NCBI GenBank assembly: GCA_964016885.1
Contig: OZ024741.1
Span: forward strand, 84,940,001-85,004,000
Source: Eledone cirrhosa
Lineage: Eukaryota
Reading direction: 5' to 3'
Length of the DNA stretch: 64,000 nt
The notes beneath the pieces were generated by a model. The model was not told the origin of the DNA. It was given only the letters and a program-made list of their open reading frames with translations, and searched no databases. The position numbers and the translations under genes were made by a program. Within the stretch, counting starts at the first letter, position 1. Each line of letters begins with the position of its first letter. Shown in pieces: positions 21,205 through 24,494 of the stretch.

Positions 21205-22763
21205 TTACCCACTCTACTAACCTAAGTATTGAGTACTCTGGTGCGTTATGGTCCATCTGGTTCCTTACCACACTTCCTTCGTTATATATATATATATATT
21301 TATATATATATATATATATATATATATATATATATATATATATATATATATATATATATATATATATATATATATATATAAGTATGTACACGTACATACA
21401 TATATGTATACCGACGCACAGTAGTATGTATATATATATATATATACATACATGCACACATATATATATGCACGTATGGATTCACCGAATATTTATTACA
21501 ATGCTCGGTGTGTTTGTAAACAAACATCCCGTATTAAGCCGTAGTGTCTAGCAACCACCGTTGCTCGTTTGTTCAACACTGACAAAGGAACGCTGTACTA
21601 GTTTCAAGCTTGTTAGCTATCGTCAGCAACGTATACCTTCCTGCCAGATTGTTGAACGTATATACTTACCTTATGCATATTAACGGCTGAGTAGCCCAAT
21701 TTGCATATCGAGTGGGTTAATCGGCCGGGTGCACCGAAAACGATAAACGGAAAAAATGAAACGATATTTCATTTCCCACTCTTAGTACGGCTGTTACTTA
21801 AATATAAGTATGTACACGTACATACATATATGTATACCGACGTACAGTAGTATGTATATATATATATATACATACATGCACACATATATATATGCACGTA
21901 TGGATTCACCGAATATTTATTACAATGCTCGGTGTGTTTGTAAACAAACATCCCGTATTAAGCCGTAGTGTCTAGCAACCACCGTTGCTCGTTTGTTCAA
22001 CACTGACAAAGGAACGCTGTACTAGTTTCAAGCTTGTTAGCTATCGTCAGCAACGTATACCTTCCTGCCAGATTGTTGAACGTATATACTTACCTTATGC
22101 ATATTAACGGCTGAGTAGCCCAATTTGCATATCGAGTGGGTTAATCGGTCGGGTGCACCGAAAACGATAAACGGAAAAAATGAAACGATATTTCATTTCC
22201 CACTCTTAGTACGGCTGTTACTTAAATATAAGTATGTACACGTACATACATATATGTATACCGACGTACAGTAGTATGTATATATATATATATACATACA
22301 TGCACACATATATATATGCACGTATGAATTCACCGAATATTTATTACATGCTCGGTGTGTTTGTAAACAAACATCCCGTATTAAGCCGTAGTGTCTAGCA
22401 TATTACCTTATGCATATTAACGGCTGAGTAGCTAACAAGCTTGAAACTAGTACAGCGTTCCTTTGTCAGTGTTGAACAAACGAGCAACGGTGGTTGCTAG
22501 ACACTACGGCTTAATACGGGATGTTTGTTTACAAACACACCGAGCATTATAATAAATATTCGGTGAATCCATACGTGCATATATATATGTGTGCATGTAT
22601 GTATATATATATATACATACTACTGTACGTCGGTATACATATATGTATGTACGTGTACATACTTATATTTAAGTAACAGCCGTACTAAGAGTGGGAAATG
22701 AAATATCGTTTCATTTTTTCCGTTTATCGTTTTCGGTGCACCCGACCGATTAACCCACTCGAT

Positions 22764-22771
22764 ATGCAAAT
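22764..22771 (+). promoter_or_regulatory. Octamer motif ATGCAAAT upstream of the HHR in array 1 units
   Basis: Perfect POU/Oct consensus; also upstream of both minus-strand HHRs; function untested. Confidence 0.45.
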
Positions 22772-22838
22772 TGAGCTACTCAGCCGTTAATATGCATAAG
22801 GTAAGTATATACGTTCAACAATCTGGCAGGAAGGTATA

Positions 22839-22879
22839 CGTTGCTGACGATAGCTAACAAGCTTGAAACTAGTACAGCG
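22839..22879 (+). ncRNA. Type I minimal hammerhead (array 1 representative)
   Basis: CGUUG-CUGACGA-uAGCU aaca AGCUu-GAAA-CUAG-UA-CAGCG; predicted cut after 22874; stem I extends through GUUCAACA/UGUUGAAC. Confidence 0.8.
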
Positions 22880-24494
22880 TTCCTTTGTCAGTGTTGAACA
22901 AACGAGCAACGGTGGTTGCTAGACACTACGGCTTAATACGGGATGTTTGTTTACAAACACACCGAGCATTGTAGTAAATATTCGGTGAATCCATACGTGC
23001 ATATATATATGTGTGCATGTATGTATATATATATATATACATACTACTGTACGTCGGTATACATATATGTATGTACGTGTACATACTTATATTTAAGTAA
23101 CAGCCGTACTAAGAGTGGGAAATGAAATATCGTTTCATTTTTTCCGTTTATATATATATATATATATATATATATACAATTAAGTTAAAAATGTACATCT
23201 ACATATGCATACTGAAATACTAGTATGCATATGAATACACACACGTATACATATGTAGATGTACCAAGTCTTTCACTGGTTACTTTACTGTGAGTATCCA
23301 GCTATTCTGTATGTAAACACACAGACAAACCGGTTTTTAGAGTCATACTGGTTTTTGAGGAAACACCTTTCCTCTATTCTCCAGAAAGCCAGACAAGGAA
23401 TATTGAACTAGTTTCGTTGTTGTTACAACTCATCAGCAATATTTACCTATCTACCGGCCTTTCTGGAGAATCGTAAAAGCACATATCGTTATATGCTTTT
23501 TCTATGAAAATTAGTAGTGGGCAGACTAATTTGCATAGAGTGTGAGTACGTACCGGTTGAACGGAGACGATAAAAACAAATAACGAAACGAAATTAAATT
23601 TCGTTTCGTTTGTAACTCACTTTTGTATGACTGACGCTTAAACAATTAAGTTAAAAATGTACATCTACATATGCATACTGAAATACTAGTATGCATATGA
23701 ATACACACACGTATACATATGTAGATGTACCAAGTCTTTCACTGGTTACTTTACTGTGAGTATCCAGCTATTCTGTATGTAAACACACAGACAAACCGGT
23801 TTTTAGAGTCATACTGGTTTTTGAGGAAACACCTTTCCTCTATTCTCCAGGAAGCCAGACAAGGAATATTGAACTAGTTTCGTTGTTGTTACAACTCATC
23901 AGCAATATTTACCTATCTACCGGCCTTTCTGGAGAATCGTAAAAGCACATATCGTTATATGCTTTTTCTATGAAAATTAGTAGTGGGCAGACTAATTTGC
24001 ATAGAGTGTGAGTACGTACCGGTTCAACGGAGACGATAAAAACAAATAACGAAACGAAATTAAATTTCGTTTCGTTTGTAACTCACTTTTACGATTCTCC
24101 AGAAAGGCCGGTAGATAGGTAAATATTGCTGATGAGTTGTAACAACAACGAAACTAGTTCAATATTCCTTGTCTGGCTTCCTGGAGAATAGAGGAAAGGT
24201 GTTTCCTCAAAAACCAGTATGACTCTAAAAACCGGTTTGTCTGTGTGTTTACATACAGAATAGCTGGATACTCACAGTAAAGTAACCAGTGAAAGACTTG
24301 GTACATCTACATATGTATACGTGTGTGTATTCATATGCATACTAGTATTTCAGTATGCATATGTAGATGTACATTTTTAACTTAATTGTTTAAGCGTCAG
24401 TCATACAAAAGTGAGTTACAAACGAAACGAAATTTAATTTCGTTTCGTTATTTGTTTTTATCGTCTCCGTTCAACCGGTACGTACTCACACTCT

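What the first reader, a model, noticed from the sequence alone, without database searches (positions are those of the whole stretch)
21379..23150. Array 1: 424-bp hammerhead repeat with a U-U closure of stem II
Seen: three complete HHRs with palindromic stem III (ACUAGU), GUA cut site, an interrupted stem I of more than 20 bp, and U10.1-U11.1 in place of the usual G-C in all three copies. No real ORF. Established: minimal type I HHRs with palindromic stem III in PLEs and satellites cleave as dimers, which a tandem transcript supplies. Inference: a young non-autonomous retrozyme producing monomers or circles of about 424 nt.
Basis: partly seen in the sequence, partly recalled or inferred. Interest (0 to 1): 0.75.

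Follow-up and report, generated by a model that had tools for sequence, protein, structure and literature searches.

The report
Hammerhead retrozyme with Penelope-type insertion footprint
A 424-base non-coding repeat of an animal genome carries a self-cutting "hammerhead" RNA motif with an unusual U-U mismatch already known from the axolotl, and it sits in a back-to-back arrangement inside a TA microsatellite that suggests it was likely copied there through RNA by the enzymes of a Penelope-like retrotransposon.

Summary
The hammerheads are real, but the array is not one tandem. Two complete type I hammerheads lie on the minus strand (2.4 units) and one on the plus strand (1.7 units), back to back, with both 3' ends in (TA)n. 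The U10.1-U11.1 closure is a family trait (no variant listed among 8,968 contigs laid in one run) and has a precedent in the axolotl retrozyme HHR_Amex2. Here it is combined with a one-pair palindromic stem III, so cleavage is predicted to need a dimer. The motif is a canonical metazoan type I hammerhead, not a PLE "minimal" one. The neighbouring 466-bp array is a homologous sister family with G-C at that position. Both show the footprint of Penelope-like elements: inverted arm, staggered internal 3' ends (tails of 61 and 70 nt) and a (TA)n target. Four families in the window keep a GCAAAT/octamer block upstream of the ribozyme, a candidate internal promoter element. Cleavage, circles and the autonomous partner are not shown. 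Verdict: a new member of the animal non-LTR retrozymes. The scan had not noted this sequence before, but it had noted similar elements on other DNA.

The parts
21283..21379 (.). (TA)n microsatellite, left target
21380..22400 (-). Left arm: 2.4 units in ribozyme sense (monomer positions 43-424, 1-424, 1-214); its outer 3' end lies in the loop of a small hairpin (tail-less end)
22014..22056 (-). Complete type I hammerhead (U.U at 10.1-11.1), predicted cut after 22020
21590..21632 (-). Complete type I hammerhead, predicted cut after 21596; 22019 to 21596 is the 424-nt monomer
22403..22433 (-). 31-bp templated bridge (monomer 324-354) at the inversion junction, overlapping the start of the right arm by 4-5 bases of microhomology
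22429..23151 (+). Right arm: 1.7 units (monomer 401-424, 1-424 with a 2-nt shorter TA run, 1-275)
22429..22458 (+). 5'-truncated half hammerhead (stem II, GAAA, palindrome, cut site 22452, 3' strand of stem I; no CUGACGA)
22764..22771 (+). Octamer ATGCAAAT in the 5' arm of a hairpin, 80 nt before the core (also 21699-21706 and 22123-22130 on -); candidate promoter element, untested
22813..22899 (+). Complete hammerhead with extended stem I: core 22844-22850, U10.1 22851, U11.1 22864, GAAA 22865-22868, palindrome 22868-22873, predicted cut 22874/22875
23089..23151 (+). 'Tail': about 61 nt (monomer 215-275) present at the right end only
23149..23176 (.). (TA)n microsatellite, right target, shared with Array 2
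23173..25859 (.). Array 2, a sister family: 466-bp unit, six hammerheads with G10.1-C11.1 and GUU site, same back-to-back layout, 70-nt tail

Best explanation
This is a back-to-back insertion of a 424-bp non-coding, hammerhead-bearing repeat family in a (TA)n microsatellite, most likely an animal non-LTR retrozyme that was copied through RNA by the reverse transcriptase/GIY-YIG endonuclease of a Penelope-like element (PLE) acting in trans. Shown from sequence: the ribozyme motif, its family-wide U.U closure, the inverted two-arm layout, the staggered internal 3' ends and the shared haplotype of all five pieces. Inferred steps: (1) multimeric transcripts are made, probably by Pol II, because each unit has T4-T6 runs that would stop Pol III. 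(2) The ribozyme has a one-pair stem III and a U.U-opened stem II, so it would cut poorly alone and better as a double hammerhead joined through the ACUAGU palindromes. (3) The 424-nt monomer would be ligated to a circle by a host RtcB-type ligase. (4) A PLE protein would nick (TA)n and start reverse transcription at two internal sites (monomer about 214 and 275). It would copy across the cut site for more than one unit from a circle or an uncut multimer, giving two arms in opposite orientation with a tail on one.
For: Motif far above chance (0 of 20,000 shuffles). Across four families in the window, 8 of 9 pairs of stems I and II change on both sides (0 of 500 shuffles reached this; slid controls 0-3 pairs; 4 sequences only, structure chosen by me). 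Circular fold z = -7.0 (Array 1) and -9.3 (Array 2) with matching branched architecture. The two arrays are 62.6% identical (258 of 412 columns), align without the ribozyme at score 232 versus a shuffle maximum of 144, and 17 of 84 consensus pairs are compensatory. Large family: 8,968 contigs laid in run X1, 120 in X9, 4 in X4 of another organism; tandem joint in all three; no difference listed at any core base, U22851 or U22864, while loop II (22858) and a stem I pair (22841/22877) vary. 37 contigs of X1 run from about 23092 into (AT)n, the same monomer position as the left-arm end; opposite-strand joints also occur in one X1 and one X4 contig. Arm ends lie at homologous places in Arrays 1 and 2 (214/275 and 230/300). 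Inverted copy, one-sided tail and (TA)n bias are PLE hallmarks (PMC8557442), and the tail is the stretch between two internal RT start sites (PMC11167929). A 5'-truncated RT+GIY-YIG PLE with the same layout and a 33-nt tail lies at 30918-34228. U.U precedent with measured activity: 22% cleavage as monomer, much more as dimer, circles in vivo (PMC7229834).
Against: No cleavage or circle was shown for this family. Only 1 of 9 Xenopus retrozyme dimers cleaved in vitro (bioRxiv 10.64898/2026.07.22.740005). The PAc hammerhead was not needed for insertion in vitro. HHR_Amex2 offsets its U.U with a two-pair helix III, which this motif lacks. The forced double-hammerhead fold (-351.9 kcal/mol) is less stable than the open monomer fold (-358.7) and the free fold (-361.5), and inter-unit palindrome pairing had probability 0.0. 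No sequence link to an autonomous PLE in this window, and no genome was held to look further. The tails (61, 70 nt) are longer than the 30-40 bp described. Read-through of this locus would make a fold-back duplex of about 720 bp that would bury the ribozymes. X1 may be the sample the window came from, contigs drop rare variants, and the 22841/22877 alleles are not phased.
Confidence: 0.75

Rival explanations
1. PLE-mobilised non-autonomous element whose ribozyme is nearly silent or protein-dependent: uncut multimeric RNA, not a circle, is the template, and U.U marks relaxed catalysis.
For: Two weakening features together. PAc ribozyme mutants still insert. 8 of 9 Xenopus dimers did not cleave. 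Arm ends do not coincide with the cut site. In F4 the same position is A.A and in F3 A-U, so it is not tightly constrained in this group.
Against: Core bases show no listed variation in a family in which about half of the contigs are under 95% alike (4,114 of 8,968). Stems covary between families. The axolotl U.U motif is active.
Confidence: 0.17
2. Ordinary satellite expanded in place by unequal exchange, with the inversion made by DNA-level template switching during repair; no RNA step at this locus.
For: A templated 31-bp bridge with microhomology at the junction. The satellite route is discussed for retrozyme arrays in the 2026 preprint.
Against: The same inverted layout and homologous end points recur in Array 2, F4 and the PLE. 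The left-arm end recurs in 37 other contigs. Clean (TA)n on both sides. All five pieces share one haplotype of a polymorphic family.
Confidence: 0.05
3. The inversion is an assembly artefact from fold-back long reads.
For: No laid contig spans this particular junction (it was outside the stretch laid).
Against: The flanks are not mirrored, the arms carry private differences, four elements in the window share the layout, and opposite-strand joints occur in contigs of two runs.
Confidence: 0.03

Closest known systems
Axolotl retrozyme Rtz_353 with HHR_Amex2 (Cervera and de la Pena 2020, PMC7229834; Results parts 1-2 of 3 and passages read, figures and supplements not seen)
   Same: Type I hammerhead in a 350-420-bp non-coding tandem unit; U.U mismatch at the base of helix II; a sister family with a normal helix II in the same genome.
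   Different: HHR_Amex2 has a two-pair helix III with a tetraloop. Here helix III is one pair capped by a palindromic loop, as described for HHR_Amex1, so both weak features sit in one motif. Cleavage and circles are shown for the axolotl, not here.
Metazoan non-LTR retrozymes (coral, Mytilus 350-390 bp; PMC7229834, PMC7761336 passages; Li, Clavereau and Pollet 2026 preprint, parts 1-3 of 5 read)
   Same: Unit size, low GC, no ORF, highly self-paired circular fold, many copies, co-occurrence with PLEs.
   Different: PMC7761336 says these repeats seem to lack promoters and show no conserved motif that points to the partner element. Here the insertion footprint itself is PLE-like and a GCAAAT block is shared by four families. 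The preprint's link to PLEs rests on pLTR homology, which I could not show here.
EN+ Penelope-like elements, insertion structure (Craig et al. 2021, PMC8557442; Frangieh et al. 2024, PMC11167929; passages read)
   Same: Partial tandems, inverted 5'-truncated copy, tail on one end, (TA)n or AT-rich target, internal 3' ends in a stem-loop.
   Different: No RT/EN ORF; canonical rather than minimal hammerhead; tail of 61-70 nt rather than 30-40.
Newt satellite 2 (Coats et al. 1994; only the title and a one-line description seen, in PMC2220036; paper not held)
   Same: Hammerhead satellite described as having an snRNA-type Pol II promoter; the octamer is a usual part of such promoters (recalled, from no call).
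   Different: No promoter activity or proximal sequence element was shown here.

Membership tests
Type I hammerhead ribozyme | Core CUGANGA, GAAA, A15.1-U16.1, H17, with stems I and II | tested here: met
   stem I pairs 0.44-0.94 and stem II pairs 0.89-1.0 in whole-arm ensembles
Type I hammerhead ribozyme | Conserved G10.1-C11.1 pair | tested here: not met
   U.U in 3 of 3 complete copies and no variant listed; the same exception is known in active HHR_Amex2
Type I hammerhead ribozyme | Loop 1-loop 2 tertiary contacts | tested here: inconclusive
   6-bp helix I, a UAU/U or UAA/U internal loop and a UAACAA loop are shared by Arrays 1 and 2; the contacts themselves were not modelled
Type I hammerhead ribozyme | Self-cleavage at the predicted site | not testable with these tools
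   needs a cleavage assay
PLE minimal hammerhead (min-HHR, PMC4209133) | Helix II 7-8 bp, helix I 4-5 bp, extra nucleotide between 9 and 10.1 | tested here: not met
   helix I 6 bp then extended to 24 bp, helix II 3-4 bp plus U.U
Metazoan non-LTR retrozyme | Tandem unit of about 150-450 bp, GC under 50%, type I HHR in each unit, at least two consecutive complete motifs | tested here: met
   424 bp, GC 0.382; two consecutive complete motifs on the left arm
Metazoan non-LTR retrozyme | No protein-coding capacity | tested here: met
   longest ATG ORF 60 aa, low complexity
Metazoan non-LTR retrozyme | Multi-copy dispersed family | tested here: met
   8,968 contigs laid in X1; not a copy number
Metazoan non-LTR retrozyme | Stable, highly self-paired circular fold | tested here: met
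   predicted only: 70% paired, z -7.0 against 100 shuffles
Metazoan non-LTR retrozyme | Expressed as linear and circular monomer RNA | not testable with these tools
   only contigs were laid; they cannot show ends, strand or circles
Metazoan non-LTR retrozyme | No PBS or PPT | not tested
   not scanned
EN+ PLE insertion structure | Inverted 5'-truncated copy next to a partial tandem | tested here: met
EN+ PLE insertion structure | (TA)n or AT-rich target | tested here: met
   (TA)n on both sides; 37 X1 contigs end into (AT)n at the left-arm position
EN+ PLE insertion structure | 30-40-bp tail on one end | tested here: inconclusive
   a one-sided extension is present but measures 61 nt (Array 2: 70; F4: about 37; window PLE: 33)
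EN+ PLE (autonomous) | RT plus GIY-YIG ORF | tested here: not met
   none in the array; it works like a PLE passenger and is not a PLE
PLE-derived retrozyme (2026 preprint) | Homology to the pLTR of an autonomous PLE | tested here: inconclusive
   only low-complexity hits in the rest of the 64-kb window; no genome held

The most novel reading that the evidence does not exclude
The window holds at least four families of one retrozyme superfamily (U.U, G-C, A-U and A.A at 10.1-11.1) that share a structured RT-start module and an octamer-type internal promoter element. They would be self-transcribing circular-RNA elements whose two reverse-transcription start sites can be read directly from genomic arm ends, and the Array 1 family would be a strictly dimer-gated ribozyme that cuts multimers but spares the monomer circle.
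Probability: 0.25. Interest if true: 0.65.

Novelty: new member of a known kind. Interest (0 to 1): 0.42.

Why it matters
How animal retrozymes move is still inferred from co-occurrence and pLTR homology. Here the insertion footprint (inversion, staggered internal ends, microsatellite target) points to PLE machinery independently of homology, and it names two candidate RT start sites that can be tested with a purified PLE protein. Arrays 1 and 2 are a natural matched pair with the same stem III palindrome, U.U versus G-C, for measuring what the 10.1-11.1 pair contributes to dimer cleavage. The conserved GCAAAT block questions the statement that animal retrozymes lack promoters. The headline feature itself, the U.U closure, is already published.

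Tried and rejected
Rfam gathering scan: 0 matches. Own-genome search: no genome held. Expression: no RNA holder listed. The one RNA-guessed run laid (X15) matched only the low-complexity stretch 23057-23096 (18 contigs), and X9 is of unrecorded kind; neither is evidence for or against expression. 12 of the 24 listed runs are marked as holders (9 coded organisms, 8 studies); I laid 4 of 24 (X1, X9, X4, X15) and draw nothing from the others. A degenerate core pattern found 0 matches in metagenome contigs and 0 in viral contigs. A search for an autonomous partner in the window gave only microsatellite-like hits. Forced monomer versus dimer folding was uninformative; the model lacks the core's non-canonical contacts. 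The F4 'unit' folded was cut wrongly (121 nt) and was redone. The four-family alignment mixed permutations, so only its GCAAAT-to-core part is used. A Pol III (SINE-like) monomer transcript was rejected because of internal T runs. Paper searches: hammerhead + 10.1 + 11.1 + U10.1 gave 0; octopus + satellite DNA + hammerhead + Penelope gave 0; retrozyme + octamer gave 2, one irrelevant and one not opened; cephalopod + hammerhead ribozyme + retrozyme listed no paper with all three terms among the 15 shown of 48. Coats 1994 and Lunse 2017 are not held. Supplements of the 2026 preprint (closed) and of PMC7229834 (not opened) may list related families. Earlier scan notes by sequence were unrelated low-complexity L1 minisatellites; two searches returned nothing. 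Host: named relatives of the window's PLE protein are from oysters or bivalve-symbiont assemblies at 43-46% identity, which fits a mollusc; 'octopus-like' is my recalled impression of the repeat landscape and is untested.

Full report
Observation. The window is repeat-rich animal DNA; no genome is held. A motif scan found hammerhead cores at 22844(+), 22050(-) and 21626(-), each reading CUGACGA, U-AGCUAACAAGCU-U, GAAA, CUAGUA. The U10.1-U11.1 closure, the ACUAGU palindrome and the GUA site are as described. Stem I has 24 pairs in four segments, and the longest ATG ORF is 60 aa. A type I descriptor hit 0 of 20,000 monomer shuffles and 0.02 per shuffled window, against 11 real hits. Rfam did not detect the motif at its gathering scores.

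Anatomy. The array is two arms whose ribozyme-sense 3' ends point outwards into (TA)n. The left arm (22400 to 21380, minus) covers monomer positions 43-424, 1-424 and 1-214. The right arm (22429-23151, plus) covers 401-424, a 422-nt unit and 1-275. A 31-bp inverted piece of the monomer bridges them. The five pieces differ by 7 private changes in about 1,720 bp apart from TA-run length. The family is much more diverse: of 8,968 contigs laid in run X1, 1,615 are at least 99% alike, 3,239 are 95-99%, 3,288 are 90-95% and 826 are under 90%, and several sites vary at 30-70%. One haplotype in all pieces implies one template and one fairly recent event (inference). The arms run across cut sites and begin inside the monomer, so the template was a circle or an uncut multimer (inference).

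The U.U closure. One search lists no difference at any core base or at 22851 and 22864 in the three runs that cover them (X1, X9, X4), whereas loop II (22858) and the stem I pair 22841/22877 vary. The tool warns that no row does not prove identity, contigs drop rare variants, and X1 may be the source sample. So U.U is a family trait rather than decay of this locus. It is not new: the axolotl HHR_Amex2 has a U.U mismatch at the base of helix II, cleaves 22% in an hour as a monomer and much more as a dimer, and its RNA is circular in tissues (PMC7229834). That motif has a two-pair helix III. The motif here has the one-pair, palindrome-capped helix III described for HHR_Amex1, so it joins both weak features; I found no report of that combination in the searches. 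By the definitions of PMC4209133 it is a canonical metazoan type I hammerhead and not a PLE min-HHR. Only the left arm has two whole ribozymes on one strand. On the right arm the double-hammerhead topology would pair the whole core at 22844 with the upstream site 22452. Constrained folding neither supports nor excludes the dimer (-351.9 versus -358.7 and -361.5 kcal/mol).

Relatives in the window. Array 2 (23173-25859, 466 bp, six hammerheads, G10.1-C11.1, GUU) is homologous along the whole unit: 62.6% identity, score 232 without the ribozyme against a shuffle maximum of 144. It has the same branched circular fold (z -9.3; Array 1 z -7.0), and 17 of 84 consensus pairs are compensatory. It is also back to back, and its arm ends (230, 300) lie at the places homologous to those of Array 1 (214, 275): one in a small hairpin, one at TTT|ATCG. 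Two further hammerhead elements, F3 (about 19585-19925, minus, A-U closure) and F4 (34355-34968, 422-bp unit, A.A, inverted end, tail about 37 nt, (TA)n on both sides), resemble them. Across the four hammerheads 8 of 9 stem pairs change on both sides (four sequences, structure chosen by me).

Mobilisation. Partial tandems, an inverted truncated copy, a tail on one end and a (TA)n bias are described for EN+ PLEs (PMC8557442). The tail corresponds to the stretch between two internal RT start sites in a stem-loop, with AT-rich DNA as target (PMC11167929). The left-arm end recurs in 37 X1 contigs that run into (AT)n at about 23092, and opposite-strand joints occur in one contig each of X1 and X4. 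The stretch laid could not test the second end. A PLE with RVT_1 and GIY-YIG domains, a CX4CX2C linker motif of the Neptune/Nematis kind (sequence; motif defined), an inverted end and a 33-nt tail lies at 30918-34228. It is shorter than most relatives and shares no detectable sequence with the arrays, so the partner is not identified. A 2026 preprint argues from co-occurrence and pLTR homology that animal retrozymes are non-autonomous PLE derivatives; in the three of five parts that I read it does not use inversion or tail evidence, and only 1 of its 9 dimers cleaved.

Candidate promoter. TATGCAAATT is the longest exact match between the two arrays. The octamer lies 80, 100 and 99 nt before the core in Array 1, Array 2 and F3, and GCAAAT is invariant in all four families. 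Only 3 octamers occur in 119,024 nt outside the arrays, one of them in F3. Newt satellite 2 is reported to use an snRNA-type Pol II promoter (title and one line seen); the octamer's role in such promoters is recalled. Against: the octamer sits in an RNA hairpin arm, F4 has only a 6-7 of 8 match, it varies in two X4 contigs and at about 11% in X9, and a second, ribozyme-less F3 copy has lost it. It remains a lead.

Verdict. It works like, and meets the testable sequence criteria of, a metazoan non-LTR retrozyme; cleavage and circles are untested. It is not an autonomous PLE and not a min-HHR. New member of a known kind, with a useful insertion footprint; interest 0.42.

Noticed in passing
window 19585-19925 (-), second copy about 6405-6660 (+): Family F3: about 307-bp unit with a direct terminal repeat, type I hammerhead (core 19735, A10.1-U11.1, palindromic AUGCAU, one mismatch in stem I), octamer 99 nt upstream; the second copy lacks the ribozyme.
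   Followed up: partly
window 34355-34968: Family F4: 422-bp unit, hammerhead core 34561(-) with A.A at the base of stem II and a tetraloop-capped stem III, inverted end, tail about 37 nt, (TA)n on both sides, circular fold z -6.8 against 2-mer block shuffles.
   Followed up: partly
window 30918-34228: 5'-truncated PLE with an open 687-codon frame (31037-33100; RVT_1, GIY-YIG, CX4CX2C linker), inverted 3' end at the left, 33-nt tail; best relative 58% identical. No hammerhead core was found in it by the scan.
   Followed up: partly
window 55757-56179: Short back-to-back pair 82-88% like the 3' end of the PLE at 30918-34228.
   Followed up: no
window 43660(+), 46188(-), 55168(-): Three related hammerhead-like cores with long stem II in a dispersed repeat of about 150 bp, probably PLE terminal repeats of the minimal type.
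   Followed up: no
window 13213(-): Isolated CUGACGA...GAAA core with a 5-bp stem II but no clear stems I and III; not a descriptor hit.
   Followed up: partly
window 21083-21205: Long imperfect hairpin (84% self-complementary over about 125 bp) in a short element between (TA) runs just left of Array 1; no other copy in the window.
   Followed up: no
window 56180-56749, 59379-61753: Further broken PLE-like reading frames by eye (GIY-YIG-like C-terminus at 60701-61753); no Pfam hit for the three pieces scanned.
   Followed up: partly
window 316-2940, 37480-38887, 42034-43040: Decayed non-LTR retrotransposon (RT-like) fragments recognised by eye from translations.
   Followed up: no
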